From Octopus sinensis (taxonomy: Eukaryota), in assembly GCF_006345805.1 (NCBI RefSeq), contig NC_043024.1, positions 3,348,001 to 3,412,000 on the forward strand: a stretch of DNA of 64,000 nucleotides, given 5' to 3'. The notes beneath the pieces were generated by a model. That model saw only the letters and a program-made list of their open reading frames with translations. It made no database searches and was not told where the DNA came from. Made by a program: the position numbers and the translations under genes. Within the stretch, counting starts at the first letter, position 1. The number at the start of each line of letters is the position of its first letter. Below, piece after piece: positions 33,590 through 57,364 of this stretch.

Positions 33590-33900
33590 GTAACACTTGC
33601 ATGGGTAGCCTTTTTCTAGAAGCGGGCCGCATGAGACATAAGCCATCATTTGGTGGGCTGCACGACTAAAATATTGAAGGTAAGTTTTCGTTTAGGTGTA
33701 CCATTCATAAAGTCCCGCAGGTTAGAAGTTTCCCATGACTGCCCTAAAATTGGGAGCGTTTACATTATCTCCCTTGGATATTAGGCGGAAGTGACGTTAA
33801 AAGAACGGCGCGGATTCTGTTTCATAAATATTGTTTAAGCAGAGTTTGAGGTGGCTATGCGATAATCGATAGATTTCGTGTTTAATAGGATTATTATGTT
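33590..33900 (+). promoter_or_regulatory. CpG-enriched promoter-like region upstream of BBIP1/ANAPC5
   Basis: Local CpG retention against a CpG-poor background. CGGAAGTGACG (ETS-CRE composite motif) at about 33786-33796. Consensus donor AAG|GTAAGT at 33679/33680. Confidence 0.6.
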
Positions 33901-34148
33901 AAACTAAGTATTGGGTAAACACAAGGAGATATATAAAGCAAAGCTGTCTTACTACACCGTTTCTTCAACTACAAGACGTTTAACAAACCAATCAGAAAGA
34001 AATATATTTCTTCGATCATGTATTTGTTGTCTTAAACTGTAATTGGTGTTTAAAGCAGTTATTTTTCTACAAGAAAACAATCACCCGAAGACGGGAAATA
34101 AATTGCTAGAAACAAAAGTTAGAGAAGAATATTTAAACCTATCTGAAT

Positions 34149-34337
34149 ATGTCTAAATCTAATGTGACTATCAAAGAAATATTGCCGAAGAAAGAGCGAG
34201 TCTACGACAGGGCCGTGCCATGTGCCATCCTTTGTAAACCGAAATTGCTGCCGCTTAGGTCGGTCACTTTAGAGAAATTGGAGAAAATTCAACGTGAAGC
34301 CCAGGATATTATTAAAAAAGAAGAAATGTTACAATAA
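34149..34337 (+). CDS. BBIP1: BBSome-interacting protein 1 (BBS18/BBIP10), 62 aa, intronless CDS
   Basis: ORF MSKSNVTIKEILPKK...AILCKPKLLPLRSVTLEKLEKIQREAQ carries the family motif E(V/I)LPK...LCKPKLLPL(K/R)SxTLEKLEK recalled from vertebrate BBIP1. Clean ATG to TAA. Confidence 0.9.
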   Translation: MSKSNVTIKEILPKKERVYDRAVPCAILCKPKLLPLRSVTLEKLEKIQREAQDIIKKEEMLQ

Positions 34338-34662
34338 TACAACCCACACGCCTCACATGCATTTGTCTTTCTAACTATTATACACATCGTACATCTTTCT
34401 CCAAATCGCTGCATCTTCTAGAATAGAACATTTCCTCTCCTCTTTAGATAAAGTAATTGGTAAGTTTTGACAATTTTTATTTGATATTTGCCTTTTAAAA
34501 TTCTTTCTAGGTTTTGTGTTTTTTATCGCTTACACGTAGTGTAGGTCTTGGTCTCCTTAGTTTTACTTAGCAACCGGTCACCAACAAACGATGGCATGGC
34601 TCTACACCCACACATCTCTTGCTTCAGTTAAATAAATATCTATCACTTTTGATCACAAGAGA

Positions 34663-34693
<31 letters not shown>

Positions 34694-34694
<1 letters not shown>

Positions 34695-34889
34695 TACTTA
34701 AGAAGAGTGATCCCGGTGCGCGTACTCGCGCATCCGCGCTAGCTAGTCGTGACTAGTCGATCCTACGACTACCTAGCAAAGTAAATAAAACACAAAAACA
34801 CAGTAAATAATTTTTTAAAACGAAGTAAATAAAACAAAAACAAAGTAAACGACTAGCTAGCGCGCACCGGGACCACTCTTCTTAAGTAG
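34694..34889. mobile_element. CpG-rich TA-flanked MITE between BBIP1 and ANAPC5
   Basis: TIRs of about 29 bp, CTACTTAAGAAGAGTG(A/G)TCCCGGTGCGCG, with one mismatch, plus an inner inverted CTAGCTAGTCGT. TA on both sides. Confidence 0.85.
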
Positions 34890-35743
34890 TACCATATATA
34901 TATAAATAAATAATAAATAAATAAAATATATGCATATATACGTACATATATGTACGTACCTACCTCTACATGTATATATACATGCATATATGGGTACAGG
35001 ACACCAAAAAAACGTCGAACACAATGAGAAACGAAAACATAGACACAAAATCAAGGAAATGGACATTTTTTTAAAACAACGAAAAAATAGAGTACAGGAC
35101 ATACAAAACAAGGAAAATTCCCCTTCTTCAGTCGCCTTAATTTCATCTACTCCACGTTTCGAAATGATATATATACATATATAATTTCGTTTCTGGGTAA
35201 TATTGTAAACATTAACCATGTATATATACGTTAAAAAAAGTAAAGATCCCCTTCGGTTATCTTCCTAGTCACAAGTCCGGGCAAGGTTGTCTTATGAAAC
35301 ACCCTAGGATTTATTCTTTGTAAGCCTAGTACTTATTCTATTGGTCTGTTTTGCTGAACTGCTAAGTTACAGGGACGTAAACACACCAACATCAGTTGTG
35401 AAACGATAGTGGGAGAACAAACAGACATGCAAATACATAAACACGTACAACACACACGTATGACGGGGCTTCTTTCAGTTTCTGTCTACCAAATCCACTC
35501 ACAATGCTTTGCTCGGCCTGGATCTTCCAGTTCTGAAGATTTGTTTAAATTTGAACCCTCAACTAAAAGATCATCAAAAGTTATTCAGACGTGCCCTATG
35601 CTTTAATAATTCTGCTAATCCATATCTTCGGCATCTCACCCATCATTTTAATAAATTCTGATCTGATCTGATCAGTGTAATCAATAATATAATCAAGAAT
35701 CATTTTTATTTTATTTTTATTTTAGGATTATCCAGCTCTGAAA

Positions 35744-35989
35744 ATGTCTTACGTATCATCTGGTTCAGATTTGTTCATGTTTGAACCCTCAACTAAAAGA
35801 TCATCAAAGGAACAAGTCACCTCTCACAAAGTGACCTTACTTGTTCTGCTTTATGAATTCCTAAATGCTTATGAGAAAAAGTCACAAATTCGAGAACAGT
35901 ACCAACAGAATTTGGACCTCAAGGTGGAAATGGATTTTACTGATGTAGAAGTGAAAGCTATTCTTACATTAATATTAGATCTTTATCAG
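35744..35989 (+). CDS. ANAPC5: Anaphase-promoting complex subunit 5, coding exon 1 (exon begins at acceptor, 35726)
   Basis: Polypyrimidine tract and TAG acceptor at 35725, ATG at 35744. VTSHKVTLLVLLYEF...LILDLYQ resembles human APC5 VTPYKIAVLVLLNEM...LLLPLLQ. Donor CAG|GTAAGC, phase 0. Confidence 0.88.
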
Positions 35990-36205
35990 GTAAGCTTACA
36001 CAGGATTTTTTCATTTGTTTTCACATTCATTTTGATATGCTTGCATGGGTTAGAGGAATATATTATTGAGGGCTTGAAAGAAATGAAGCTAGTATGCTTT
36101 GCTGGGTGTGCACAGTCAGTTTGCATGTACAAAAGAGTGTCAGCTTCTTGAGAGAAGAATTGGGCATAAGAGGTATCAGATGTGGTGTGCAAGAGAGACT
36201 GTGCT

Positions 36206-36500
36206 GGTATGGTCATGTGATGCATATGGATGAGGATGGTTGTGGAGGGAACCTGAGGAAGAGGTAGACCCAAGAAGACCTGGGTATGGTCATGTAATGC
36301 ATATGGATGAGGACAGCTGTGGAAGAGGTAGACCCAGGAAGACCTGGTTATGGTCACGTGATGCATATGGGTGAGGATGGTTGTGGAGGGAACCTGTGGA
36401 AGAGGTAGACCCAGGAAGACCTGGTTATGGTCATGTGATGCATATGGATGAGGACAGCTGTGTAAAGATCTCTAACTGTGGAAGGAACCTATGGAAGATG
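36206..36500 (+). repeat. Minisatellite built from RTE coding sequence
   Basis: Four units starting TATGGTCA(T/C)GT(G/A)ATGCATATGG at about 36207, 36284, 36348 and 36425, alternating about 77 and about 63 bp. Confidence 0.85.
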
Positions 36501-36889
36501 TAGACCGAGGTGGGACGAGGTGGTTAAGCATGATCTTTGGATGTTGGGTTTCAAGGAAGCGATGACAAGTGATCGAGACCATTGGCAATTTGCTGTGCTT
36601 GAGAAGACTCGTCAAGCCAAGTAAAATTGTAGTCATGGCCATGCTGGTGGCACATAAAAGCACCAGTGACACATAAGAGGCACCCACTACACTCTTGGAG
36701 TCGTTGGTGTTAGGAGGGGTGTCCAACCACAGAAACCAAGCCAAACCAGACTGGAGCCTGCTACAGTTCTCCAGCTTACAGTTCTAGTCAACAACAGACA
36801 ACTAAATTTCTCACTATTCACTAGCAAAACTGGTAGAATTTCCACAGATTTCACTCATAGTAGTAATAATAATGATAATAATAATCATA

Positions 36890-37238
36890 AGAGCACTCAG
36901 AGAGTGCAAACCTCAGCCAAGGCAACACCAATGTCCTCTCAATGATTAGCCAGAGGTGATTTTTAAAATGAGAATATTTGAAATAGATTTGACTGCTCTC
37001 ACAAATGAGAATACTAAAAATGAACCTGACCATTCTCAAAAATTAAGTAAAAAAAACAGGAAAAATAATCCAGAATCCTTATCTGTTACCAGATCGATCC
37101 CAAAATCTAATCAGTTCATGCCAGTCACAAGGCCAAACATCCCTGAAAGTTTCATCTGAATCCACCCAGCGGTTCATGGACAAACAAGCAAACACAACTG
37201 AAAACAATACTTTCACCTTTGCTAAGATAGAGGTAATA
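36890..37238 (+). mobile_element. Helentron/HINE-like non-autonomous element
   Basis: Begins GAGCACTCAGAGAGTGCAAACCTCAGCCAAGG and ends with a degenerate hairpin ...ACCTTTGCTAAGATAGAGGTAAT. Classification is from recalled motifs only. Confidence 0.4.
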
Positions 37239-37848
37239 ATACTATGTGTCAATATTTTGTGCTTCTAAGGCATAAGGCAGCAAACTGGTAGAATATTTAG
37301 ATGCTAAACTGTATCTTGTCTGTCTTTGCCTTCTGAGTTCAAATTCTGCTGAGGTCAACTTTGCTTTTCATCCTTTTGGGGTCAGTGAAATAAATACCAG
37401 TTGAACTTATCAACTTATCCCCCTCCTCTGATATTGCTGGCCTTGTGCTAAAATTTGAAACCAATATTTTGTGCTTCTAACAAAATTTCATTACACATCA
37501 TCACTATCTTTCTTTTGTAGCTGGGGTAGCCCTGTACCCCAGCTAAGACTCTTATTCCTGTTCCTCTATCATATTTTTTTCTCTCAACATCTGGTATAAG
37601 CTACCTCCATTCAGTTGAGGGGTCTTGTCTTGCAAGGTGCCTGCAACCTCATGAGTGCCAGTGACATAAAAAAAGAAACACGCCCAATCCACTCTGTAAA
37701 GTAGTTGGTGTTTGGAAGGGCATCAAGTAGTGTGTAACCATGTTGAAATAGGCATTGGAGTTTGACACAGTCCACTGACTGCCACATCCTGTCAAAGTGT
37801 CTGACCCATGCCAGTGTTGAATACAGATACTGAATAATTATGATTTTT

Positions 37849-38059
37849 AACAATTGCAGCGTGGAAGGTGTTTATAAGCCATTTAAGAAACACATAAAAT
37901 TCATTAGATTCACTTCAGCATGGAATTTTGTTAGTGAATGGTCGCGGTCTCAAAGCGACGAAAATATTTTGACAAATTAAATTTGAATGTTGAAGTGAAT
38001 CTAATGGATTTTGTGTGTTTCTTAAATGGCTTATAAACACCTTCCATGCTGCAATTGTT
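37849..38059. repeat. Foldback element with inverted arms of about 72 bp
   Basis: AACAATTGCAGCGTGGAAGGTGTTTATAAGCCATTTAAGAAACAC... is mirrored by ...GTGTTTCTTAAATGGCTTATAAACACCTTCCATGCTGCAATTGTT. Confidence 0.85.
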
Positions 38060-38206
38060 TTCGTTCTAGCATACGATCTCAGATCAGGTCGCTTGCTATA
38101 CAAGTACATCTCCGTAATATTATGATTATAAAAGTGTGAAAAGAGAATTCATAAATAATTTTCCTTCCCAATGATGTTATCTCTTTATCTTTTATCCACA
38201 TTACAG

Positions 38207-38289
38207 GGACCTGAAAAGGCTCTTCGTGATTTAATTCCCCGTGTGAAGAAAGTGACAAATGCAAAGTTGGCTGACAGATTTACAGGAAG
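38207..38289 (+). CDS. ANAPC5: ANAPC5 coding exon 2
   Basis: TTACAG acceptor. GPEKALRDLIPRVKKVTNAKLADRFTGR vs human GPDITLSKLYKLIEESCPQLANSVQIR. Donor AG|GTTTGA, phase 0 to 2. Confidence 0.8.
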
Positions 38290-39899
38290 GTTTGAAAAGA
38301 TTTTTATAATATTTTAATTTAAATTGTAGTGTCATTGTTTTTTTTTTGTGTGTGTGTGTTGGGGGTGGGAGGGATTCCTTTATCAGAATGTGGTCAGTCG
38401 AAGAAAACTTGTCTGTAGTTAAGGGCGTATGACAGTATCAAAAATATTATACAAGTTGGTCAGAAGCCCTCTAGATTTTCCAGCCCTAAGCTTTAGCCTA
38501 ATAAGTCTTGCTGAGCCTGCTTCCCTGTGCATGTGTGCTTGAGTCTGTCTGTTCGTATGAGTTTTTGTGTGTATGCATGTGTATCTATATTTATTTAGCA
38601 TGACGTGATTCCAACTCACAATGTCTTTATTCCTTAATAAGAATAAGATAGAGGCCTACTCAAGTGCATATGCATATGCTTTATGAGATATGTAGACCAC
38701 AATCACTTAATTACATAAGGAGGAGTCGGAGGTGCCAATAGTAGAGGAGTCGGAGTCAAAGTTTTTGTTTCAACTCCACAGTCCTGGTTAAGTTGAATAG
38801 TGGGAAGATAGGCAAGCCTATAGGTAGGTAAGTTGAATGATAGACTGGTAGGCAGGTACATAAGTAGTATGGACAGACACACACATGACCATACAAACAC
38901 TCTACACACAGACATGGATACATGCACAGAAACTTACACACACAGACACATGCACGCATGCAAACTGAAGTACACACACATACATACACAAACATGCACA
39001 CACAGAGACACATGAATACACAGACGTGTACACACATGCATACATACATATGCAAGCACATATACACACACACACACACACAAATGCATGCAACAAGGTC
39101 TCAAGTAGACAAATGCGGCCTCCATAATGGACTGAATCAAAAGTCATTGAAAAGGTTGCAAGTTGCAATGAAAGAGCTTTGACAAACAAAAGCAAAACAA
39201 ATGACTCACTGTTTAACCAAATTAAACAAACAAACGATTAGTTTGTTGCATATTTAATCAGTTGACAAATAATAAAAGAGTGGAGTTGAACCAGTGTGTG
39301 TGTTAATTATATTGGCATAAGGACACTTCCTAGATGCAACAAAATTTGTTTCAACACACAAATTCACATAAAGAATCTTGCAAACTGGGTACAAAAAGGA
39401 TTTTAAATAAAGTTTGTATCATAAAGCCAAGGGTGGTTCCGGGTGGGTTGGCACCAAAAGGAGTAAACATAAGTGCTATTTATTTCATCTTCACTTTAAC
39501 TTTATTATTATTGTTTTTAGTTTATTTGCCAAAGTTCTTTCACCACACATCCTGTGACCCCTTCAGAGACTTTCTGTCCCACATGCTTCCTCTTGTCCTG
39601 CTTATTCCATTCTGTCTTGTCAAATAAATCAGCATTGAATTGTGGATGCCACATAAGTGCTGCCAGAACATCTGATATCCACTCCGCAACAACTACATCA
39701 GCAATGTTGCTTCTATAGCAGTTAGGGGCCTGCAGGCCACAAGCAGACCAGGGGACTTTCTGAGCAGCATGCCAGTGAAAATTTACCTTGAATTTTATAG
39801 AAATGCGATCTGCTTGATGACATGCCTTGTCTTGTGGCTTGCTTTCTCATAAAAGGTCACCTAGCCTGCTCTATAGCAATTCCTCTCTCTAATTTCCAG

Positions 39900-40012
39900 G
39901 TTGACTGTCATAGCTGAAGGAGGAATCCGAGCCCTCAATGAGTTTTTTAATCAATTTACAGACGATTTTTTGCATTTCTCAGAAACATTAATGCATAAAT
40001 CATCATTGTTCG
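39900..40012 (+). CDS. ANAPC5: ANAPC5 coding exon 3
   Basis: TTCCAG acceptor. LTVIAEGGIRALNEFFNQFTDDFLHFSETLMHKSSLFG vs human IKLMAEGELKDMEQFFDDL...HKTSVVG. Donor G|GTAAGT. Confidence 0.88.
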
Positions 40013-42628
40013 GTAAGTTTGAAAAAAATTAGTTTTTGTTTGTTTTTGTTTTGTCCTTCCTGTATCCATCTCCACTCCCATTCCATGCTCCAAAGGTGGT
40101 GATTGTTTCATTTAATGATTGTTTAAAACGTAACCTATGTACATTAACATACGCATGCATTGAATTCTTTTGTGGTCGTTTTCATCATTGTCATCATCAC
40201 CATCCTTATCAATCACGTCATCTTTATTCACATCATTTCTATTTTCATCCACTATAACCTTTCAACATCTGACAAGGTCACCTCCTCCCGTTTCTTCTCA
40301 AATGATTTTTGTCTTGTAAGTTACTTGGTGACCCTTTCAGTGCAAGTGCCACTTAAAAAGCACTCAGTCCACACTGTAAAGTGGTTGGCATTTGGGAGGG
40401 CATCCAGCTGTAAAAACCTTGCCAAAACTGACCTCACCTGTGCTTGTGCCATGTAAAAAGCACTCAGTCCACTCTGCTGGGTGATGGTGTTAGGAAGGAC
40501 ACCCAGTTATAAAAATCCTGCCGAAACAGTCACAGAAGTCTGGTGCAGGCTTCTACCTGGCTGGCTCCTGTCAGACCGTCCTACCCTTGCCAGCATGGAA
40601 GGTGGACGTTAAACGATGATGTTGATGATGATGATGATGATTCCTACAGGCTTGTCCTTTACAGGTTCCAATGCCATGTAAAATGTACTCATGCTGGTGC
40701 TGACTAAATGCACCCTGCACACTCTGTAGAGTATTTGGCATTAGGAAGGGCATCCAACCATAGAAACCAGGCCACAACAGAAAACTGGAGTTTTAACAGC
40801 TCTCTGGTTGGCCTATCTAACCCATACTGGTATGGAAAACAGACGTTAGATGACGACGACAACAATGATGATGATGATCATGCTGAACATTGCCATGTTC
40901 TTAATTATCATTGTCTTCTAATCACTTCATACTCTCTTTCACTCTTTTACTTGTGTCAGTCTTTTTGACTGTGGCCATACTGGAGTACCACTTTTAGTTG
41001 AACAAATTGACCCCAGGACTTATTCTTTGTAAGCCTAGTACTTATTCTATCGGTCTCTTTTGCTGAACCGCTAAGTTACGGGGATGTAAACACACCAGCA
41101 TCTTTTGTGAAAAAATGTTGCGGAGGACAAACATAAACACATGCACACACACACACACACACACACATACACACACACACGTACATACATATATATGACA
41201 GGCTTCTTTCAGTTTCCGTCTACCAAATCCACACACAAGGCTTTGGTCGGCCCGAGGCTATAATAGAAGACACTTGCCCAAGGTGCCACGCAGTGGGACT
41301 GAACCCAGAACCATGTGGTTGGTAAGCAAGCTATTTACTACACAGCCACTCCTGCGCCTATAAAATCTTCAATTTTAACATGTATTCCATCTTTAGCACG
41401 ATTCTCACCAGATTCATCATCATCTTTATCATCATTATCACCATCATCATCTTCATTATTGCCTGCTATCTTTCCTAAGCTGACAAAAGTATAAGTTCGG
41501 GAACTGCAAACAAAAACCGTTAGACTATTGGAGGAGATGCTTTGTACTTTTTGTTCTGGGTTCAAATCCTGCCAGGGTCTACCTAGATGGCAAACTTAAA
41601 CTTTAACCCTGTTTAACATCGTCACCTGAACCTGTGGGTCTTTATTTGAGCCATGTCTCCAGTTTGAAGATAATGTCTTTCCCTCACTTTCTCCTTTCCT
41701 CCTGTCCACCTGTCTTGGAGGCCCTGAAAGAGATCACGAGTAGCTCCTTTTTCTCATGCCCTAACAATAATGTAAAAAATCTCAGACTGTTAATAATAAT
41801 AATAATGCTTGGGGAAAATGCTACGGTAATAGCAATAATGTGTTTCTTTTAAAGATAATTTATTTATATTATGATAATGGGTTTACATTAATTATAAAGG
41901 AAAGTCGTTGGTACTAGGAAATGCATCTAGCTGTAAAAATTGTGCCAAAGTAGACAGTGGAGCTTGGCATAGTCCTTTGGCTTACCAACTCTTGTCAAAC
42001 CATCCAACCCATGGATGATGGATGTTAAATAAAGATGATGATAATGTCATCATCATCATCGTTTAACATCCGCTTTCCATGCTGGCATAGGCTGGATGGC
42101 TTGACTGAGGACTGGCAAGCTAGTCAGTTGCACCAGGCTCCAATCTGATCTGGCAAGGTTTCTACAGCTGGATGCCCTTCCTAACACCAACCACTTTGAG
42201 AGTGTAGTGGGTGCTTTTTACATGCCACTGGCACAGGAGCCAGTCGGCACTGGCATCGACCACGTTCAGATGATACTTTTTATGTGCCACCAGCATGGGT
42301 GCCAGTCAGGGGGCACTGGCATCGGCCTCATTCGATGGTGCTTTTTACGTGCCACCAGCATGACTTATATTAATTACAATAATGTATTATATTAAGTGGA
42401 GTATTAAACCAGTTAGCTGGCAGAATTGTTAGCATGCTGGATAAAATGGTTTGTGTTCTGAGTTCAAATACTGCTGAGCTTTGACTTTGCCTTTCGTCTT
42501 TAAAGGGTTGATAAAATAAGCACCAGTTAAGCTCAAGTCTAAGTAATTGACTCTCTCCTTCCTCAAAAATTACCGACCTTGTGTCAAAATTAGAAATTAT
42601 TAATTAACTGGATTAATTAACATTTCAG

Positions 42629-42794
42629 GTCTGTTCGCCCGGAGGATGATGGTAACTTTCAACATGTTATCGTTGAGTGAAGTGGTCAACATATTCAACC
42701 GTTTTCATGCTGAAATGATGAGTATTACTGCTGATAAAGAGAAAAATTGTAGAGACTCAGTTGGTCCGGACGATGCTTTCGGTCAGGGCAAGAC
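42629..42794 (+). CDS. ANAPC5: ANAPC5 coding exon 4
   Basis: TTTCAG acceptor. GLFARRMMVTFNMLSLSEVVNIF vs human GLFLRHMILAYSKLSFSQVFKLY. Donor AC|GTTAGT gives the phase needed for exon 5; the 3' end is less certain. Confidence 0.82.
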
Positions 42795-43116
42795 GTTAGT
42801 ATTGATTGCAGTAACACAGATTGGAATATCTGTCCTTGTTGTGTAGAGGATGGTTTCTGGGTGTTGTGTGGTGGAGATATTGTAACTTGAATGTGTATTT
42901 GTGGATACGTAAAAAGAACTAGGGTGACACGAGAAAAGCACTGGTGATGGTGCCACATAAAAAGCACCTAGTATGCACTGTAAAGTGGTTGGCATGAGGA
43001 AGGGCATCCAGCTGTAGAAACCAAGCCAAATCAGACTTTGTACCTGTTGTGGCACCTGGCCTTACCAGATCCTATCAAGCCATCCAACCCATGCCAGAAT
43101 GGAAAATTAACCTTAA

Positions 43117-43323
43117 CCCTTTAGCATTCAGATTACTCTGTCAAATGTAATGCTTTTTTATTCACATTGTTTTGAATTAATTTTGCATTATCTTGTAAAC
43201 TTGAGATTTCAATGATGCTATTGCATATTTTTAGAATGACACTGTAGGGTAGGTGTGTGTGAGTGGCTGGTTGAAGTAGGTAGAATATTTGGGCTGGATA
43301 TGACTGGTTTAAATGCTAAAGGG
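43117..43323. mobile_element. Second TTAA-type MITE family (representative copy)
   Basis: TTAACCCTTTAGCATTCAGA...AAATGCTAAAGGGTTA. Other copies at about 2978-3183, 8005-8200, 32780-33000, 61460-61666 and 62500-62600. Confidence 0.75.
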
Positions 43324-43723
43324 TTATAGGATGATGATGATGATGATGATGGTGTGTGGTGGTAGTAGTCTGGCCATGTTTTGTAGCAATTGTAACATGG
43401 ATGCTTGTGTGTGTGTGCATGTGCAAGCACGCATGCAGACTGTGTTGTGGGTGTTCAGTGTAACCATGTGCGAGTATGTATGTGTACATGTGTGCATTTG
43501 TGTGAATGTTGTGTGGTGGTGGGAGTGTAGTGTGGATGTGTTGCATGGCTGGAGTAAAGTGCAGCCAGGTTATGTGATGGTGTTGGTGATAGTGATGGCA
43601 GTGTGGCCCAGAGTGGGGAGAATGGAAATGGAGGGGCAGGCTGGGATCAAGGTGTGAAGTGTGTGTGTGAGAGCTTCATATATTCCTGCCTAACCAAGCG
43701 TTTATATTTCTTGCCCACAACAG

Positions 43724-43784
43724 ACAACCACCCCCTGTGACGTATAAATCTCAAAAACAGGCAGAATATTACATAGCCAACCAG
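43724..43784 (+). CDS. ANAPC5: ANAPC5 coding exon 5
   Basis: QPPPVTYKSQKQAEYYIANQ vs human GPLSQKQAEFFLSQQ. CAG acceptor, donor CAG|GTGAGT. Confidence 0.88.
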
Positions 43785-44408
43785 GTGAGTGTTTTTATTT
43801 CTTGGATTTTTTTAATGCTTTTTATGCTCTGTGTTTTTGTTTTACTGCCAGCTTCATTGCTATTGTCTTCAGCCCAGGTAGAAAGCATCCTCCATAATGT
43901 TCACTTCCAGTCATAGAATATCTATAAAACACTTAGTGTGGACTGGATGCTTTTTGTGTGGTACCAAATACTGGCAGGGTCACCAAGTAACATGCAAGTA
44001 TATATTCTTTTATTTGTTTCAGTCATTTGACTGCGGCCATGCTGGAGCACCGCCTTTAATCAAACAAATCGACCCTAGGACTTATTCTTTGTAAACTTAG
44101 TACTTATTCTATTGGTCTCTTTTGTGGAACTACTAAGTTACAGGGACGTAAACACACCAACATCGGTTGTCAAGCACTGATTGGAGGCCAAACACAGACA
44201 GACAGACACACACACATGTATAAATCCGATGGGTTTCTTTCAGTTTCTGTCTGCCAAATCTACTCTCAAGGCATTGGTCGGCCTGAGTCCATAGTAGAAG
44301 ACACTTGCCCAGGGCACCATGTAGTGGGACTGAACCCGGAACCATGTGGTTGGTAAGCAAGCTACATACCACACAGCCACAATATGTGTGTGTGTGTGTG
44401 TGTATATG

Positions 44409-44445
<37 letters not shown>

Positions 44446-46179
44446 TTTCTCAAGATGGCTACATATTTTTTGTACCATCTCTCTAACTTAACCCTTGCTT
44501 GTTCTGTCTATGTTTCATGTTGGCTAAATATTTTTCATACTCTTATTCCTTCCCAGTGACTATGGCTTCTGGTGCTCTGTCTGCTACTCATTGCTATTGT
44601 CTTCAGCCCAGGTAGAAAGCGCCCTCCATAATGTCCACTTCCGGTCATAGCATATCTATAAAACACTTTACTTACATGTTTTCCTCTCTGTTTTTCACGC
44701 AATTCATCCAACATAGACGCTTCTTGGATGCCCAGTTATGCATTGCTAAACTAAGATATTCGCTTTTTTTTCGATTTTTTTCACGCATTAATTCGCCATT
44801 CGCTATAAATACTTTTATTCATCATTATCATCATTTAACGTCCCCTTTCCATGCTAGCATGGGTTGGACGATTTGACTGAGGACTGGCGAACCAGATGGC
44901 TGCACCAGGCTCAAATCTGATCTGGCAGAGTTTCCACAGTTGGATGCCCTTCCTAATGCCAACCACTCTGTGAGTGTAGTGGGTGCTTTTATGTGCCCCT
45001 AGCACAAGGGCCAGTCAAGTGGTACTGGCAATGGCCACGCTCAAGTGGTGTTTTTTACGTGCCACCTGCGCAGGAGCCAGTCCAGCGGCACTGGCAACGA
45101 CCTTGCTCGAATGTTTTTCACGTGCCAGTGAGGCAGCGCTGGCAATGATCCCGTTTGAATGGTGCTTTTTATGTTCCACTGGCACGGAAGCCAGTCAGCT
45201 GCTCTGGCAGCGATCATGCTCAGATGGTGCTCTTAGCGTTCCACTAGCATGGGTGCCAGTCATCAAATTTGCGAATTTGATTTGATTTTGATTATTTACT
45301 AATATCTACTATCGTAAGCTAATTATTTAAATTGACTCTTCAATATATCACTTCCTAATCTCCCTCTCTCAGCCTTTGTTTCACCATAATTCTTCATGCA
45401 ATTTTCTAAATGTAGTCTCTCCTTCCTTCCTGTGTTCTCAAGTTGGCTTCATAGCTTTTTTATACCATCTCTCTAAATTAACCCTTGCTTGTTCACGGTG
45501 CACTCACCCATTCCCAGCCCCACCACCAATACCGGATATCTCTCTCTCTTCTCCCTCCATTATTGGATATCTTTCTTCTCCCACCACCATCACCATATAT
45601 ATCTCTTCTATCACCGGAAACCACCTCCCTCACTAGTGGTATCCTCTACCATACCTGCAATCTCCTCTCTCTCTCCCAGGACAAATGCAACTAGTTTAGC
45701 TGCTCACCTACTTAATCGGCTATCTTTTGTTTTGACTCAAAATTTGTCAACAAACTACTCGGTAATTTCCATGGACGTATTGAAGTAGAAAGAGAAAGCT
45801 AATGGGCTGTACGTGCGTACTTGATCCTCTGTGTGTGTGTATGGGCGTACTTGTTCCTCTCTTCTCTCACTGGTGGTATCCTCTATCATACTTGCAATCT
45901 CCTCTCCCCCTCTCTCTCCTGGGACAAATGCAACTAGTTTAGCTGCCCACCTTCTTAATCTAACATTGGTATATTGATATTGATATTCTCCTTTAACTAT
46001 CTTTATTGATTTACTTGTATCTGCAACACCAGTAATGCTTAAATTTACGTTTTTACGATGTCTGTAATGCTTATACTTACAATGCCACTAACACCTTCTC
46101 CTACCCTCTGTAGGAGCAACAATCTTAACATGCTTGAAGTTTGAATGTCGACAGATTGGAAGTGAGAACAAGTGTAGTA

Positions 46180-47490
46180 TGTCTATCAAACAAACACAAA
46201 AAGGTACATAGGTATAAAATCTTCTGGGAAGGTAACAGTGATGGAGTAGGGGGTGTAGGCATACTCCTCATGGAGAAATGGGTGGATAAGGTCATAGAGG
46301 TAGTCAGGGTAAGTGATAGAGTGCTTAAGCTCAGGCTAGTCCTGCAGAATAGTATAGCTACAATTATCTCTGCCTACGCCCACAAGCTGGCCTATGAAAC
46401 AGTCAGAAGAACCACTTTTATGATACCCTTCTACAAGCTACCTTAAAGACAAGCGGTAATGACTGCAGCTGGAGATTTTAATGGGCATGTCGAACTGCAA
46501 TCCGGTATCTTCCATGGTGTTCATGGGGGCCATGGAATTGGTTTCCGAAATGAAGTGACCAAGTCTGTAGTGGGGGTGGATGCTCGGAGAGCATTGCCAC
46601 AAGAATAAGAATAGCCTAGGAAAAGTTCAGAAAGCCCCTGCCTCTACTGGTGACAAAGAGCCTCTCACTCAGAGTGAAAGGTAGATTGTATGATGCATGT
46701 GTGCGAACTGCCATGTTACATGGCAGTGAAGCATGGTCCATGACTGCTGAAGCCATGCATAGGCTTGAAAGAAATGAAGCTAGTATGATGCGCTGGATGT
46801 GTAATGTCAGTGTGCACACGACAGAGTGTAAGTGCCCCGAAAGAAATGTTGGACGTAAGAAGCATCAAATGTGGTGTACTGCGCTTGTATGGTCATGTGC
46901 TGCATATAGATGAGGAGAGCTGTGTGAAGAAGTGTCACTCCCTAACTGTGGAAGGAATCCATGGTAGAGGGAGACCCAGGAAGACATGGGATGAGGTGGT
47001 GAAAAATGACCTTCGGATATTGGGCCTCACAGAGGCAATGACGAAAGACCAAGACCTCTGGAGATATGCTGTAATTGAGAAGACGGCAAGTAAAGTGAGA
47101 TCACAGCCTTAGCCTACACCAGTGTTACATAACCAGCCCATTTAAAAAAAGTACCTTTGAATCATTGAGTGACATGCTGTGCTTGAGGAGACCTATTGAA
47201 TCAAGATAAGTCAAAATCAAATCACAATCAAATGGAAATTGTAGTTGTGGCCAATGCTAGTGCCACCTGACTGGCTCCCTGTGCCAGTGACATGTAAAAA
47301 GCACCATCCGAACATGGTCGATGCCAGCCCCTCTGCCCTGACTGGCTCCTGTGCTGGTAGCACATAAAAAGCATCCACTACACTCACAGAGTGGTTGGCG
47401 TTAGGAAGGGCATCCAGCTGTAGAAACATTGCTAGATCAGATTGGAGCCTGGTGTGGTCTCCTGGCTTGCCAGTCCCAGTTAAATGATGA
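46180..47490 (+). mobile_element. Internally deleted RTE-clade LINE (endonuclease fragment joined to C-terminus and 3' UTR)
   Basis: APE motifs GGVGILL..WVDKVIEV.RVSDR, IISAYA and AGDFNGHV. Then KGRLYDACVRTAMLHGSEAW, YGHVL and RGRPRKTW. 3' UTR ends in (GAT)n. Confidence 0.88.
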
Positions 47491-47579
47491 TGATGTATCT
47501 ATATGTGTGTGTTTATATATGTCTATATCTATATTATGTGTGTGTGTGTACATATATATGTGTGTGTGTGTGTATATGT

Positions 47580-50560
47580 ATAACGATAATGAAGATAACC
47601 CTAGAAGGGCCATTAACATATATACCCTTCCCTTTGACATTCAATTCTTCAACATATGTGACAAATCTTACAACATGAGCCAGATTTATCCAACAACATT
47701 ACCCTTCAACAAAAGGGTCTACATCCCAAGACATACTAATGACCATATGGAAGCACAGTTCACTATAGCTAGGACCAGACTTAGACAGATTTTAGAACTA
47801 TACACTAAGAGACAGAATAAGACAGAGGCCCAACAACTCGGGATTAAACCCGCATGTGGCCTACGTAAGCTCATTCAGCGCACGAGGAACGGAGAGGTGG
47901 TATACCTTCCCACAGATAAGTCCGGCAGGATGTCAATAGACAGCTTACCAAACTACATCCAGGCAATGCAACCTCATATCGCCAATACGAAAGTAACAAC
48001 TTTACAGGCGCATGAGGAGAGAGAAAAGGTCCTCAATGCCCACATGATGATGTGGACAATTGTTCTGGGACCCCAGAAATGCACAGCTAACAATTTCCAA
48101 GCCTGGAACAATGATATCTCGGCACTGTATGGATTTCGCAAGGACCATAAAGTAACCACTGACCCTATAGCAGGACTACCAACAAGACCAGTCTGTGGAG
48201 TGAATATCGCTAGCAACTACAGAATCTCCTACTTCCTCTCAATGATCATACGCCCTATAATCCGGATGTCACCTGATGTTTGTGACAGCACGGAAGATCT
48301 TCTCAGCAGGATCAATAACTGTAACAACACTTGCAACCTGACAGGATGTATGGTGGGTAGCATGGATGTAGTATCCCTATACCCATCGATCGACGTGGAT
48401 TTTGCGGTGGAGAAGTGCGTGGAGATGATCAACGAGAGCCAGGTGGAGTTCCGTAATGTCAACACAGAGGAACTGGGCCTCCTACTTAGACTGACATATG
48501 ACAATGAATACCTATATAAACATGATCTTAGTAGTTTCTGCCCCAGTAGACGTTTAAGAAGTAGACCACCCACAATTACTTCTATGGCTAGGAAGACCCA
48601 TATAGAGAGACAGAGCGGATGGACCAGAGCCATACGGAGCCCCGCAAATGTCCATCAGGTAAAGAAAATGATCGCACATGCACTAGGAGCTAGTATAAGA
48701 GTTACCCTAAAAGGCCACACGTTTAAGTTTAACAATAAAATATATGCCTAGGATGAGGGGGCAGCCATCGGCGTTAGTTTCTCTGGTGATGTGGCCAACC
48801 TTTTCATGGTATGGTGGGACAGAAGGCTTAAGGAACGCCTAACACAGAACTCCATACTTGTGAACATGTACTCTCGCTATGTTATCAACATAGTGGTAAA
48901 GGCACCCCCACAAGAGAGTACTGTTGAAATAGAAATAGAAACTAATACCATGGAGAGTATCCAGCAAATAGCTAACTCCATCCACAAGAGTATTAAGGTC
49001 ACAATAGACTACCCTACTAAACACCCCAACCATAGACTACCAGTACTAGACACAGAACTCTGGCTAGAAACTGTGAATAATAAAACCCAAATCCTTCATT
49101 TGTACTATGCCAAACCTATGGCCTCCAAATACTTGATCCACCGGAACTCAGCCATTGCGGACAATGCCAAATTCAATATTTTGATGGCAGACCTTGTCAG
49201 AATAATGAGAAATGTGTCCCGCATGTGCGAGCCTACAGAGTTAAAGAGGGACATACAACATTTCATTCACCGCATGCAGTTCTCAGGTTACAGCCATAAA
49301 GAAAGGATCAGAGTATACAAAGGAGCCATGAAGAAACTTGATAATATCTTATGTAATGATGGGAATGGGATTTGCCCACTCTATAGGAACAAGTCATGGA
49401 ACACTATGGAAAGGACAAAGAAGAAAATAGGGAAGGCCAACTCTTGGTATGATAGCCACAAATACCAGAGTGTCATGTTTGTTGACACCACCCCTGGAGG
49501 TGAACTGGCGTACCGCTTTAGAAGGACCCTAGACAAACTTAAGCTAAGGATTAAGGTTGTTGAAAAGCCAGGCAACCCTATCAAATCCATAATCAGTAGA
49601 ACCCCCTGTACGGATAGGTACTGTACTATGTGTAGATTTAGCCCACAAACAAACTGTAAAGCCAGAAATGTAGTCTATAGTATAAGATGTATAGAGGGAT
49701 GATGCAGTAACAAGACAACGACATACGTAGGGGAAACGGCAAGAAGCATAGGAGAGCGGGTAAATGCACATTGGAGAGAACTTAAGGAAGGAAAGAGCTC
49801 ATCTATTCTGTACCAACACGCCGAGCAGGAACACGGGGGATCAATCAACAACATAGAAGTTAAAATCTTGTCCACACATAGAACAGACGCAACAATCAGA
49901 CAAATTACGGAAGCTACACACATAATAGAAGATAAACCTAGCCTGAATAGGAAACTTGAATGGAACACTAGCACACACCACAACATATGACAGAAGAGGA
50001 TCCCCATAAACTGGTTACAATATAAACAAAACTGAAAACATAATAAAATGAAATACACTGATAAATAAACAAATGGAAGTATATAACTATATAGGTTTTT
50101 TTTATATTTAAAATTTTTTTATTTATTTAAAAAAATTTTTTTATTATTATTATTATGACTAGTATTGTTATACATACATACAAGCATACGTAATAATAAT
50201 GATAATAATAATAATAAGTGGATGTAAGCACATGAACAAGATAAGAAAAAACAAAAACAAATTACACGAACGTATATAAACAGAAGATACAAATATTACA
50301 GGCATCCCCCTCCCCCCACACACTAAATAAACATAGATGCACATAGAGATATAAGCATGCGCAAATGAAGACATACAATAGAAATACAAAATGGCTGATG
50401 GTTAGTAAGGAGAGAGACACAATTAAGTAAGAAGAAAGCAAAGGACCACTGATGCGGTCACAGGAGTGTGACGAAAAAACTCTGGCCAAAATAAGATTAA
50501 GATTAATTTAAAAAATAAATAACACTGAAGCAAAGTAACACCAAATATATAGTGCGTGTG
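47580..50560 (+). mobile_element. Penelope-like retroelement (RT plus C-terminal GIY-YIG), 5'-truncated and decayed
   Basis: One reading frame from about 47580 to 49990 with in-frame stops at 48749 and 49700. RT motifs DHK..PTRPV, SMDVVSLYPSID, GAAIG and LPVLD. GIY-YIG motif VVYSIRC...YVGETARSIGERVNAH...LNRKLEW. The catalytic DD is missing (YSRYV-INIV). Confidence 0.92.
50444..50487 (+). ncRNA. Degenerate minimal type I hammerhead ribozyme in the Penelope 3' region
   Basis: GACCA-CTGATGCG-GTCACA-GGAG-TGTGAC-GAAA-AAACTC-TGGCC. Stem I, core and a perfect stem II are present. The last A of CUGANGA is changed and stem III is broken. Confidence 0.6.
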
Positions 50561-50624
50561 TTTTTATTGGCTAAACTTGCAATATGACCATTCTGAAATA
50601 TAACAATATATATATATATTTATG

Positions 50625-50669
<45 letters not shown>

Positions 50670-50925
50670 ATGTATATATACATATATGTATGTATGTATA
50701 TATATAGATGTATACACATGCATGTTGGGCTTCTTTCAGTTTCTGACTTTATATCTATCAGATCCACTCACAAGGCTATTTATTGTAAAAGTCACTTGCC
50801 CAAGGTGCCATGTGGTGGGACTGAACCTGGAATCATGTGGTTTGGAAGCAAGCTTCTTACCACACAGCCACACCTATTGATTTTAATATTGTTTTCATTA
50901 TGTTTCCTTCATCTTCTCTGTTCAG

Positions 50926-51027
50926 GCATTCCTCATTCACCATAATGTCACTAAAGCTGCACCACCCAATGAATTACAAGAGCGGATCAGAAACTTACTT
51001 AAAGAGAATCCAAATTTAGCAGAAGCT
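50926..51027 (+). CDS. ANAPC5: ANAPC5 coding exon 6
   Basis: AFLIHHNVTKAAPPNELQERIRNLLKENPNLAEA vs human ASLLKNDETKALTPASLQKELNNLLKFNPDFAEA. TTCAG acceptor, GTAAGT donor. Confidence 0.92.
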
Positions 51028-51298
51028 GTAAGTATGGTTGTTTGTTTTACTTCTATTGTTCCGTGATAGCATGGGTTGGGTGAACACATTATTGAAATGT
51101 TATTTCGAAACCTGATATTCTTGCTGTTGCTAACTCTTACCTGTTTTTCAAGTAAGGGATCTCTTATTTCAGACATTTTCATGCTTAACTGCTAAATTAC
51201 AGTGATGTAAACACACCAACATTGATTGTCAAGCAGTGTTGTGTGTGTGTGTGGGGGGGGAGGGAACGCAGACACAGGACACACAAGCAGATGTATAT

Positions 51299-51336
<38 letters not shown>

Positions 51337-52199
51337 ATGAATATATGAATTTATATCCATTTCTATTCAACAGTTAATTACTTCTTTTCGTTTCTTCACC
51401 TACACATGTTTCTGCAGCAATTAACTATTGCACACTGCAAAATTTGCATCTTTATGTACCCTTATTGTTAGTTGTTACTTCTTCAGGGTGGATACAACCA
51501 CATTGTTCAGATAGAATCTAATTTAATGGAGTGTGCATTAGTTAATTGCTGCAGAAATGAAAAATAATTTACTGCTGAATAAAACTGGATATACACTGTG
51601 GCCATGCTGGAGCACTGCCTTTAGTCGAGCAAATCAACCCCAGGACTTATTCTTTGTAAGCCTAGTACTTATTCTGTCCGTCTCTTTTGCTGAACCGCTA
51701 AGTTACGGGGACATAAACACACCAGCATCGGTTGTCAAGTGATGTTGCGGGGGGCAAACACAGACACACAAACATATACACACACCCACTCACACACACA
51801 CATATATATAAATAAATAACCCCCCCACACACACACACATGATGGGCTTCTTTCAGTTTCTGTCTCCCAAATCCACTCACAAGGCTTTGGTGGCCTGAGG
51901 CTATAGTAGAAGACAATTGCCAAGTGCCCCACAGTGGGACTGAACCCAGAACCATGTGGCTGGGAAGCAAACTTCGTACCACATAACCATGCCTGCACCT
52001 ACTGTGTTTGTGTTAACATATTTAATGCAGGGATTATTAAAGATTTAACTAATGCTCCCTTGTTGTTGTTGTTGCTGCTGTCATTTAGCCTTGGGTGGGC
52101 TGTTATCAAGAATAGATGCACCTTCATTCATTTATCTGTGTTTTTATTGAGGTTTTGGTGAAGGTCATGACCTTTGATTCTCTTCTTCTTTATCCTCAG

Positions 52200-52405
52200 C
52201 ACTTCTTGAGTTACTTAAACAACATCCGTGTCAAGGAATTCTGCACAGCTTCTCACAACCTCTATCACTATTTTGACCGATATGTCCTGCCGTCAGTGGA
52301 CCAAAGCAATGTCCAGCAGTTCAAAACTAAAGAGAATATTGATGACAGCAACCGTCGTTATGCTGCACTGAATCTTGCAGCTTTGCACTTTAGTTTTGGA
52401 CACAA
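52200..52405 (+). CDS. ANAPC5: ANAPC5 coding exon 7
   Basis: HFLSYLNNIRVKEF...HYFDR...RYAALNLAALHFSFGH matches the diagnostic APC5 motifs HYLSYLNNLRV, HYFDR and RYAALNLAALH. Canonical splice sites. Confidence 0.96.
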
Positions 52406-52849
52406 GTAAGTCCCATTGATTTTTCAGTTAGACCTTGAACTTGTTTTATCTTGTACTTATTTCAGTCATTGGACTGCGGCCATGCTGTGTCACAGCCTTG
52501 AAGGATTTGTTTGAATAGACCAACCTCAGAACTTATTGCTAAAGTCATCATGATTGTCATTCTACACCCATTTTTCCATGCTGGCCTGGGTTGGACAAAA
52601 TACATGCTCCTGTGTCTGGAATTGAACCTTCTCTCCTCTCCCCCCAGGCTGCCTGGGTGAAAGCCAGAAATGCTAATCACTCGACCACATGTGAGTCTGG
52701 TACTTGTTATCTTGGTCTCTTTTGCTGAACTGTGAAGTTATGGGGACATAAGCAAACTCTATACCGGTTGTCAAGTGGTGCAATGGGGACAAATACAAAC
52801 ACACACACACACACACACACAATTCAAATAATAAGACAAAGAAAAACTT

Positions 52850-53015
52850 TAGACGTAGGAGTGGCTGTGTGGTAAGTAGCTTGCTTACGAACCACATGCT
52901 TCTGGGTCAGTCCCACTGCATGGCATCTTGGCCAAGTGTCTTCTGCTATAGCCTCGGGCTGACCAAAGCCTTGTGAGTGGATTTGGTAGACGGAAACTGA
53001 AAGAAGCCTGTCGTA

Positions 53016-53062
<47 letters not shown>

Positions 53063-53262
53063 TTTTGTGTCTGTGTTTGTCCCCCCAACATTGCTTGACA
53101 ACCGATGGTGGTGTTTATGTCCCCCGTAACTTAGCGGTTTGGCAAAAGAGACTGATAGAATAAGTACTAGGCTTACAAAGAATAAGTCCTGGGGTCGATT
53201 AGCTTGACTAAAGGCGGTGCTCCAGCATGGCCACAGTCAAATGACTGAAACAAGTGAAAGAG
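52850..53262 (+). mobile_element. tRNA-derived SINE family 1 (representative full copy)
   Basis: A box TGGCTGTGTGGTAA, B box GGTTCAGTCCC-like, central (TA/TG)n, tail ...AATGACTGAAACAAG. More than 15 copies, e.g. 10653-11260, 14750-15135, 27788-28180, 40945-41360(-), 44008-44380(-), 51596-51998(-), 57125-57530(-), 61795-62172(-). Confidence 0.9.
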
Positions 53263-53926
53263 TATATCGTTATTGACCAGTTACAAGTGTTTCTGTTCCA
53301 CCACTGCTTTCGTTGCCAGTTTATGCAAAAGTTTAAAGTGAAAATTTATGTAATATTTGTAGTTTTATATTTCATGTGTCTTTACATTGAGTTCAAATTC
53401 TGCTGAGGTCGACTTTGCCTTTCATCCTTTCGGGTTTGATAAATTAAGTACCTGTTGTGTATTGGGGTTGATCTAATCAACTGCTTCTCCTCCCCAAATA
53501 AAATTTTGGGCGTTGTGCCTAGAGTAGAAAAGAATATTTGCAGTTTTAAACATCAGAGTGGCATTTCCTCAGAGCTGCATCAAAGGTGTGCTCATACATG
53601 GTGCATCTGTCAGACTTTGTGTTTTACTTGTATTGGGAGGAAAGAAAAATCAAGTAAATATGTAGTCATGCTGGGGCAGTGCCCTGAAAGGTTTAGCGAA
53701 ACAATCATCCCCTGCACATAGTTTTTTCAGTCTGGTGACTGAAACTAGCAAAAGGTAAAAGTTACATACACACACACACACACACAGAGGTGTGTGCTCT
53801 TCTACAGCAGCACACCTGTTTCTGCCCTCATTCTTGATCACTCTCTCTCTTCTTGCTCTTCCCTCTGGCTGGGTAACCAGGTATCTCCTTTAGAGCAGTA
53901 CACCTGTTTCTGTCCTCATGCTTGTT

Positions 53927-53963
<37 letters not shown>

Positions 53964-55632: not shown

Positions 55633-55714
55633 AGAACAAGCTATTGCAGCCTTACGAGAAGCCATTCGTATGGCTCAGGAAAATAACGATCACTTATGTC
55701 TCCAGCACGCTTTG
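55633..55714 (+). CDS. ANAPC5: ANAPC5 coding exon 8
   Basis: EQAIAALREAIRMAQENNDHLCLQHAL vs human QQAELALQEAIRIAQESNDHVCLQHCL. Canonical splice sites. Confidence 0.95.

Positions 55715-57315: not shown

Positions 57316-57364
<49 letters not shown>

What the first reader, a model, noticed from the sequence alone, without database searches (positions are those of the whole stretch)
33590..35989. BBIP1 sits inside the apparent ANAPC5 transcription unit: shared first exon or bicistronic mRNA
Seen: ANAPC5's ATG exon starts at a strong acceptor only 18 nt before the ATG, so an upstream exon must exist. The best donors I found upstream are AAG|GTAAGT at 33679 (before BBIP1) and TTG|GTAAGT at 34459 (in the BBIP1 3' region). 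The clearest promoter-like CpG/ETS-CRE region lies in front of BBIP1, and an AATAAA follows at about 34631. Inference, three models: (a) one leader exon splices either to the BBIP1 exon or to ANAPC5, giving two unrelated proteins from one promoter; (b) a single exon carrying the whole BBIP1 ORF splices 34459 to 35726, making BBIP1 a uORF of ANAPC5; (c) a separate TSS lies inside the BBIP1 3' UTR. Models (a) and (b) would couple a ciliary BBSome subunit to a mitotic APC/C subunit. I know of no report of this arrangement.
Basis: partly seen in the sequence, partly recalled or inferred. Interest (0 to 1): 0.78.

Follow-up and report, generated by a model that had tools for sequence, protein, structure and literature searches.

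The report
Octopus two-protein BBIP1–ANAPC5 messenger RNA
In octopus, assembled sequencing data splice the gene for a small cilium-transport protein (BBIP1) onto the front of a cell-division gene (ANAPC5), so one messenger RNA likely makes both proteins; cuttlefish keep the same gene order, while other animals appear to place BBIP1 in front of different, unrelated partner genes.

Summary
Model (b) holds. In 6 of 6 RNA-like runs laid (six studies), a contig carrying the whole BBIP1 ORF (34149-34337, 62 aa) splices 34459→35726 into ANAPC5. Two DNA-sized runs pass 34459 unspliced. No joint uses the 33679 donor. BBIP1 has one octopus-type copy, and 140 nt with stops separate the two ORFs, so there is no fusion. 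A cuttlefish 'APC5' gene model begins with BBIP1's first 34 residues, so the order is shared by octopods and cuttlefish. None of 80 other BBIP1 loci showed ANAPC5. In 20 of them BBIP1 instead precedes LMBR1-like, RITA, VPS25 (a bivalve) or SRR1 genes. This scan already noted BBIP1–LMBRD2 on other DNA, and FlyBase lists the fly pair named there as dicistronic. The partners vary, so a cilium–mitosis coupling is unsupported. ANAPC5 is likely reached by leaky scanning plus reinitiation after six tiny uORFs (inferred). Evidence is contigs only: no long reads, no translation data. Verdict: a real new variant of a known kind, not found in print.

The parts
33784..33797 (+). ETS-CRE-like promoter motif at the point where the transcript contigs begin (promoter role inferred)
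   Evidence: 1 match, 0 in 100 shuffles; contig 5' ends at 33785, 33791, 33792, 33799, 33808, 33855
33785..34459 (+). Shared first exon: leader, BBIP1 ORF and 122 nt of spacer; 5' end approximate
   Evidence: one contig per run covers it in 5 of 6 runs, two overlapping contigs in X14
33857..34035 (+). Three leader uORFs: 33857-33865 (2 codons; AUG lost in label B and D runs), 33896-33907 (3), 34018-34035 (5)
   Evidence: variant G33859A
34149..34337 (+). BBIP1/BBS18 ORF, 62 aa, intronless, first cistron
   Evidence: only octopus-type copy in G000
34162..34374 (+). Three more out-of-frame mini-ORFs: 34162-34167 (1 codon), 34220-34237 (5), 34357-34374 (5); plus an in-frame AUG at 34326
34460..35725 (+). 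Intron 1 (1266 nt, GT..AG); holds AATAAA 34631, an inverted-repeat element, repeat fragments and a partial copy of exon 2
   Evidence: joint in 6 of 6 RNA-like runs, 0 of 2 DNA-sized runs
34631..34636 (+). AATAAA inside intron 1; possible poly(A) signal of a BBIP1-only isoform, use not shown
35726..35989 (+). Exon 2: last 18 nt of the spacer, ANAPC5 start at 35744, residues 1-82
   Evidence: in-frame stop 7 codons before the ATG in the spliced RNA
35744..63375 (+). ANAPC5 coding exons 1-12 of 17 (the other five lie within about 8 kb beyond the window)
   Evidence: joint 35989→38207
33677..33685 (+). Consensus donor at 33679, upstream of the promoter motif; no use seen
   Evidence: no joint

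Best explanation
Assembled contigs join one first exon holding the whole BBIP1 ORF to ANAPC5 exon 2, so a single promoter likely makes one bicistronic mRNA that is the main source of both proteins, with ANAPC5 probably reached by ribosomes that scan past the BBIP1 start and restart after tiny upstream ORFs. Shown: the exon, the splice, the separate ORFs, the single copy, and the same order in cuttlefish. Inferred: (1) the contig is one molecule (about 0.88); (2) both ORFs are translated from it; (3) the route to ANAPC5 is cap-dependent leaky scanning plus reinitiation after 1-5-codon uORFs, not reinitiation straight after the 62-codon BBIP1 ORF and not an IRES (about 0.6); (4) the pairing arose when a BBIP1 exon without a used terminator came to lie in front of ANAPC5 in a cephalopod ancestor, one of several such pairings of BBIP1 in animals. 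On this reading the link sets a dose ratio and does not reflect a shared function.
For: Joint 34459→35726 (GT..AG) in X18, X1, X4, X8 and X6, X14: 6 of 6 RNA-like runs, six studies, two organism labels. Depth over exon 1 equals that of a single contig in the four runs. X6 and X14 also splice 35989→38207. Contig lengths leave 109-692 nt beyond a full ANAPC5 CDS (arithmetic, only exons 1-3 were laid). DNA-sized X16 and X17 run through 34459 unspliced. An O. vulgaris gene model reads through the same junction, and its accession is consecutive with ANAPC5. The Sepia 'APC5' model shares its first 34 aa with a BBIP1. That BBIP1 cluster and that ANAPC5 cluster list the same longest-contig lengths, 4553 (Logan) and 194083 (ENA). 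The stop is at the same position in four cephalopod BBIP1 sequences. All six out-of-frame uORFs are 5 codons or shorter: P about 0.003 for summed length, and 0 of 92 genomic windows match this. The spacer folds no better than shuffles, z=0.1. Short uORFs favour reinitiation and eIF3 is lost within about 12-60 codons (PMC10275272, passages).
Against: All evidence is assembled contigs. They drop rare isoforms, cannot show strand, start or single molecules, and the runs are only guessed to be RNA (X18 has no kind on record); their spliced introns are my ground for calling them RNA. The short-uORF test was chosen after seeing the data. Split up, it gives P about 0.02 for the leader and only 0.05-0.14 for BBIP1 ORF plus spacer. 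uAUGs are not depleted (6 against 8.8 expected, P=0.15), and the BBIP1 start is no weaker than ANAPC5's (both have A at -3), unlike green-algal leaky bicistrons (PMC11291117, abstract). Eight AUGs precede the ANAPC5 AUG. The BBIP1 stop lies 122 nt before a junction, which would invite nonsense-mediated decay by the vertebrate rule (recalled). Low-depth contigs (2-3.3) lie in the 3' end of intron 1 in 3 of 4 runs. A short unexplained piece of depth 115 covers 35713 in X18. The cuttlefish link rests on a chimeric gene model and matching contig lengths, not on DNA that I read.
Confidence: 0.75

Rival explanations
1. The bicistronic mRNA is real, but ANAPC5 is translated by another route: reinitiation directly after the BBIP1 stop, ribosome shunting, or internal entry in the 140-nt spacer.
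For: The BBIP1 start context is as good as ANAPC5's and uAUGs are not depleted. FlyBase notes that most fly dicistronics do not fit simple scanning (PMC4528330, passage). One study found eIF3 retained for up to 60 codons (PMC10275272, passage).
Against: The spacer is unstructured (z=0.1) and contains its own 5-codon ORF. Viral termination-reinitiation needs stop and start within about 20-30 nt; here the gap is 140 nt.
Confidence: 0.25
2. A BBIP1-only mRNA ending at the intronic AATAAA (34631), or an ANAPC5-only mRNA from a start inside intron 1, exists alongside the bicistronic form and supplies much of one protein in some tissues.
For: AATAAA at 34631. CpG-rich sequence extends through intron 1. 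Low-depth contigs lie at 35494-35746. 114 of 159 fly dicistronic loci have a monocistronic alternative.
Against: In one search the depth over exon 1 and at the donor is fully accounted for by the one spliced contig in all four runs. Much of the intron's CpG lies in repeats.
Confidence: 0.25
3. Model (c): ANAPC5 has its own start inside the BBIP1 3' region, and assembly merged two overlapping transcripts into one contig.
For: A contig across two genes shows no single transcript (tool caveat). An ATTAAA at 34311 could in principle end a BBIP1 mRNA at its stop.
Against: BBIP1 would need a 3' end before 34459 (no AATAAA in 34338-34459) or a read-through into the intron. The same single path is seen in six studies, and the only promoter-like motif found is before BBIP1.
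Confidence: 0.08
4. Model (a): a leader exon ending at 33679 splices either to BBIP1 or to ANAPC5.
For: Perfect consensus donor; one contig of depth 3.5 in X18 covers 33540-33774.
Against: That contig crosses 33679 unspliced. No joint from 33679 appears among the listed joints of six runs, and the main contigs start 106 nt or more downstream.
Confidence: 0.02
5. The pairing was selected to couple cilium assembly to the cell cycle: stress or quiescence would shift ribosomes between BBIP1 and ANAPC5, as in ATF4-type control.
For: The order is kept in octopods and cuttlefish. The layout of short uORFs followed by a longer ORF fits. STREMI-SLC35A4 responds to the integrated stress response (PMC13303939, abstract passage).
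Against: BBIP1's partners elsewhere are unrelated to mitosis. One leader uAUG is lost in label B and D runs. There are no translation data.
Confidence: 0.12

Closest known systems
Drosophila CG42511–CG8135 dicistronic pair (FlyBase; PMC4528330 File S1, rows read)
   Same: Listed as exclusively dicistronic, unrelated proteins, 141 nt from stop to start (140 nt here).
   Different: The partner here is ANAPC5 and the spacer is split by a 1266-nt intron.
STREMI–SLC35A4 and the 'gene symbiosis' class of human bicistronic transcripts (PMC13303939; passages and section 13 read, supplements not seen)
   Same: A small conserved complex-associated protein upstream of an unrelated gene; both genes are older than the pairing; no shared function needed.
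   Different: There the downstream CDS is intronless and retroposed. Here the downstream gene has 17 coding exons, and the upstream ORF is intronless in many other animals too, so retroposition is not shown. The passages I read describe one pairing event per pair, not a cistron with several partners.
Green-algal bicistronic mRNAs translated by leaky scanning (PMC11291117, abstract and passages; PMC7896298, passages)
   Same: Two separate conserved ORFs on one mRNA, short unstructured spacer, different reading frames.
   Different: The two hallmarks, a weak ORF1 start and AUG depletion, were not met here; the uORFs are short rather than few.

Membership tests
BBIP1/BBS18 (PF14777) | Score over the Pfam cut-off and match to solved BBS18 | tested here: met
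   73 bits against cut-off 26; 6vbu E=3e-15; all 11 invariant columns of a 30-sequence alignment present
ANAPC5 | Apc5_N and ANAPC5 domains, with a start homologous to other ANAPC5 proteins | tested here: met
Exclusively bicistronic mRNA (FlyBase sense) | Both ORFs on one spliced transcript path | tested here: met
   6 of 6 RNA-like runs; contig level only
Exclusively bicistronic mRNA (FlyBase sense) | Single molecules span both ORFs | not testable with these tools
   all runs laid are contigs; no raw or long reads were listed
Exclusively bicistronic mRNA (FlyBase sense) | Separate ORFs, no fusion or read-through | tested here: met
   140-nt spacer, out of frame, three stops in the ANAPC5 frame within 20 codons; conserved BBIP1 stop
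Exclusively bicistronic mRNA (FlyBase sense) | No monocistronic alternative | tested here: inconclusive
   none assembled, but contigs drop rare forms; low-depth intron contigs exist
Exclusively bicistronic mRNA (FlyBase sense) | Both proteins are translated from this mRNA | not testable with these tools
   no ribosome profiling or proteomics; only conservation and single copy
Green-algal leaky-scanning bicistron | ORF1 start weaker than ORF2 start | tested here: not met
   both contexts have A at -3 and differ at 1 of the 10 positions printed; no species-specific Kozak model was built
Green-algal leaky-scanning bicistron | AUG depletion before ORF2 | tested here: not met
   6 observed against 8.8±2.2, P=0.15
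Gene symbiosis by retroposition (STREMI–SLC35A4 type) | Both genes predate the pairing | tested here: met
   homologues of both far outside cephalopods; ANAPC5 beside 0 of 80 other BBIP1 loci
Gene symbiosis by retroposition (STREMI–SLC35A4 type) | One member is an intron-lost retrocopy | tested here: inconclusive
   BBIP1 is intronless here but also in many other loci
Gene symbiosis by retroposition (STREMI–SLC35A4 type) | Stress-responsive translation of the downstream ORF | not testable with these tools
   needs reporter or profiling data
Trans-spliced operon (nematode type, recalled) | The downstream gene is cut out with a spliced leader at its acceptor | tested here: inconclusive
   the acceptor is joined in cis to 34459 in all six runs; loose-end tables were truncated (533 and 2353 rows not shown) and a 21-nt excess near 35713 in X18 is unexplained

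The most novel reading that the evidence does not exclude
BBIP1 is a serial hitch-hiker: a portable first-exon cassette (promoter, tiny uORFs, 62-codon ORF, no used terminator) that different animal lineages have independently attached to at least four unrelated genes (ANAPC5, VPS25, RITA1, LMBRD2). What is selected is being an upstream cistron, not the partner. In cephalopods the cassette would also work as a translational switch between a ciliary and a mitotic complex.
Probability: 0.2. Interest if true: 0.8.

Novelty: new variant of a known kind. Interest (0 to 1): 0.55.

Why it matters
Bicistronic mRNAs joining unrelated proteins are known, and the standing question is whether the pair is functionally coupled or only shares a promoter. 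One upstream cistron with several different partners across animals is a natural experiment on that question: the property would lie in BBIP1 (for example a required low dose, or a weak terminator), not in the pair. I put the partner-swapping part alone at about 0.55 and the switch part much lower. In practice, annotation pipelines garble this locus (two public models fuse pieces of BBIP1 to ANAPC5 sequence), RNA-seq cannot separate the two genes, and a knock-down or promoter edit of one gene in cephalopods would hit both.

Tried and rejected
Run listing: no RNA holder was on record; the runs laid were guesses or of unknown kind. No cover at 34536-34701 in the four runs, while DNA-sized X16 goes on to 34651: a weak hint only, not counted as evidence. 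Contig 5' ends near 33790 are also weak, because DNA-sized X17 has a contig end at 33777. Fused BBIP1 proteins: none among 22 longer candidates, and none with a second family among the 14 longer true BBIP1 hits scanned (16 proteins, one of them ANAPC5 itself, one a false repeat hit). This was a false blank, since the Sepia chimera was found from the ANAPC5 side. Long Mytilus ANAPC5 models carry no BBIP10 domain. Second BBIP1 copy: two further hits over the cut-off (G000 C8615, C9733) are 99% identical to each other, 31% GC, gene-dense, with tiny introns and no match to the window's repeats (0 hits against 16 for a control stretch). I read them as a co-assembled other organism, not a paralogue (inferred). 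Short-chain dehydrogenase exons 1.5-5 kb behind BBIP1 in 5 loci were dropped as partners: an AATAAA follows the stop in at least L020/L022 and L067, and the two groups differ. Loci L071 and L077, whose next ORFs lie about 0.1-0.4 kb behind BBIP1, were not counted: they look like compact non-animal genomes (my judgement). Pfam scan of 108 further downstream ORFs from 33 loci: 3 hits, no new close partner. Argonauta BBIP1 was found but its ANAPC5 was not, so adjacency there is untested. For O. bimaculoides there are only similar UniProt id ranges; not used. The O. vulgaris model's extra intron inside BBIP1 (34258/9→34422) was not seen in any run. No structure or complex prediction was run, since no binding is claimed. 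No BBIP1 tree was built (62 aa, few named sequences), so independence of the pairings is not tested.

Full report
Observation. The ORF 34149-34337 is BBIP1 (PF14777, E=1.2e-20; BBS18 structures). The downstream gene is ANAPC5: exon 2 equals residues 1-82 of an annotated Octopus ANAPC5, and 17 coding exons map to the window and the next 8 kb of G000. The organism is an Octopus species by these matches. A promoter-like motif at 33784-33797 is unique in the window and lies downstream of the 33679 donor.

Transcript structure. One search listed 24 runs, none on record as RNA. I laid 8 of them. Six small runs from six studies (X18, X1, X4, X8; X6, X14) each show the joint 34459→35726 with GT..AG ends, on a contig of 2771-3659 nt that holds the whole BBIP1 ORF. 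In five runs one contig covers exon 1 from 33785-33855; in X14 exon 1 is in two overlapping contigs. X6 and X14 also splice 35989→38207, which is my ground for treating these runs as RNA. The two DNA-sized runs (X16, X17) cross 34459 unspliced and lack the joint. No listed joint uses 33679. After exon 1 the contigs are 109-692 nt longer than the 18-nt leader plus the 2280-nt CDS, consistent with full-length ANAPC5, although only exons 1-3 were laid. Limits: contigs drop rare forms and show neither strand, start nor single molecules. Low-depth contigs lie in the 3' part of intron 1 in three runs, and a short piece near 35713 in X18 is unexplained.

Two proteins, not one. In the spliced RNA, 140 nt separate the BBIP1 stop from the ANAPC5 AUG, out of frame, with stops in the ANAPC5 frame. 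Four cephalopod BBIP1 sequences stop at the same column. G000 has one octopus-type BBIP1. A family search found two more hits on small contigs; these look like another organism in the assembly (inferred). Between labels A and B the BBIP1 ORF differs by one third-position change (34205), while leader and spacer carry several substitutions and deletions of 3 and 11-12 nt; the numbers are too small to test.

Conservation in cephalopods. O. vulgaris models CAI9741812.1 and CAI9741813.1 are consecutive; the first is BBIP1's N-terminal half read on through the same 34459/35726 junction. The Sepia pharaonis 'APC5' model CAE1263703.1 starts with the first 34 residues of a BBIP1 (P0002) before entering ANAPC5 sequence, so BBIP1 lies upstream on the same strand there. 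The cluster of that BBIP1 and the cluster of that ANAPC5 list identical longest contigs, 4553 nt in Logan and 194083 nt in ENA. This suggests shared transcript and genomic contigs but is indirect. The octopod-cuttlefish split is roughly 270 million years old (recalled).

Other animals. Of 217 confirmed BBIP1 matches in metagenome contigs, the best 80 were returned; many are near-duplicates and short. None has ANAPC5 (tblastn and HMM). Twenty have a same-strand Pfam-named gene close behind: LMBR1-family 14, RITA 3, VPS25 2, SRR1 domain 1. Spacers were 16-256 nt in the 17 measured, and 9 of 10 spacers checked lack AATAAA/ATTAAA. In L058, L064, L038 and L041 the partner ORF is uninterrupted, while related loci are broken by introns, as expected of spliced bicistronic mRNA (inferred). 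The L043 BBIP1 is 64/71 identical to Dreissena BBIP1, so a bivalve pairs it with VPS25. The taxa of the other groups were not established. I did not measure how often any gene has so close a neighbour in those genomes, and some look compact. Some loci have an AATAAA soon after the stop and are probably monocistronic (L020).

Mechanism. Eight AUGs precede the ANAPC5 AUG: BBIP1's, one in frame near its end, and six opening ORFs of 1-5 codons. Their number is unremarkable (P=0.15) but their shortness is not (summed length P=0.0026; 0 of 92 genomic windows). The test was post hoc, and for ORF plus spacer alone P is 0.05-0.14. The same shortness does not hold in all partner loci (L058 has a 49-codon one). 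The spacer has no unusual structure. I commit to leaky scanning past the BBIP1 AUG with reinitiation after the tiny ORFs (about 0.6). This rests on the known dependence of reinitiation on ORF length (PMC10275272, passages; PMC11291117, passages). Translation itself is not shown.

Known systems and literature. FlyBase lists 159 dicistronic pairs, 45 of them exclusive (PMC4528330, passages). 'Gene symbiosis' describes such unions in vertebrates (PMC13303939, passages and section 13). Searches: BBIP1+ANAPC5 gave 2 papers, both with single mentions (listing and abstract starts only). BBIP1+bicistronic gave 3 (listing). BBIP10+polycistronic and CG42511 gave 0. Searches listed 20 of 92, 25 of 145, 5 of 6, 20 of 656 and 12 of 30 papers, none on this pair by title or abstract start. 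PMC2276209, PMC7530721 and PMC7896298 have no BBIP mention in the main text. Their supplements, and those of PMC13303939, were not seen and could list the pair. The library lacks most subscription papers.

Verdict. Real and well supported at contig level: a BBIP1–ANAPC5 bicistronic unit shared by octopods and probably cuttlefish. It is a new variant of a known kind. Interest 0.55.

Noticed in passing
window 35526-35579 (+): Partial copy of ANAPC5 exon 2 inside intron 1 (42 nt at 93% identity, 15 of 18 residues), directly after a repeat fragment. Low-depth contigs cover this area in three runs.
   Followed up: partly
window 34692-34891: Element with 31-nt terminal inverted repeats (97%) inserted in a TA run, high copy by depth; looks like a MITE.
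   Followed up: no
window 34142-34154 and 35737-35749: The start contexts of BBIP1 and ANAPC5 are nearly identical (12 of 13 bases, read); chance or shared optimum, unexplained.
   Followed up: no
L094:4160-8000 (G000 C8615; near-identical copy on C9733, L095): A divergent BBIP1 with a tiny intron lies about 135 nt before WDR35/IFT121, another ciliary gene, on AT-rich gene-dense contigs without octopus repeats: probably a co-assembled organism, perhaps a dicyemid parasite (name recalled, untested).
   Followed up: partly
G000 C9497 and C12444: VPS25 matches at two kinds of place: C12444 (intron-spaced, octopus repeats, no BBIP1 in the 5 kb before it) and two divergent compact copies on C9497, possibly the same foreign organism.
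   Followed up: partly
window about 47600-49960 (+): Long degraded reading frames in ANAPC5 intron sequence that look like a reverse-transcriptase retroelement (judged by eye; not scanned).
   Followed up: no
window 33540-33774: A contig of depth 3.5 in X18 ends 11 nt before the main contig begins and runs upstream; it could be a divergent promoter transcript, but contigs give no strand.
   Followed up: no
L055:1421-2753 and L041:1345-2450: BBIP1 169 nt before an SRR1-domain ORF and 107 nt before a RITA ORF; organisms not identified.
   Followed up: partly
P0192 and P0194 (public models): The O. vulgaris ANAPC5 model starts at a later Met (697 aa) and the Sepia model has a chimeric N-terminus; both look like annotation errors caused by the bicistronic leader.
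   Followed up: partly
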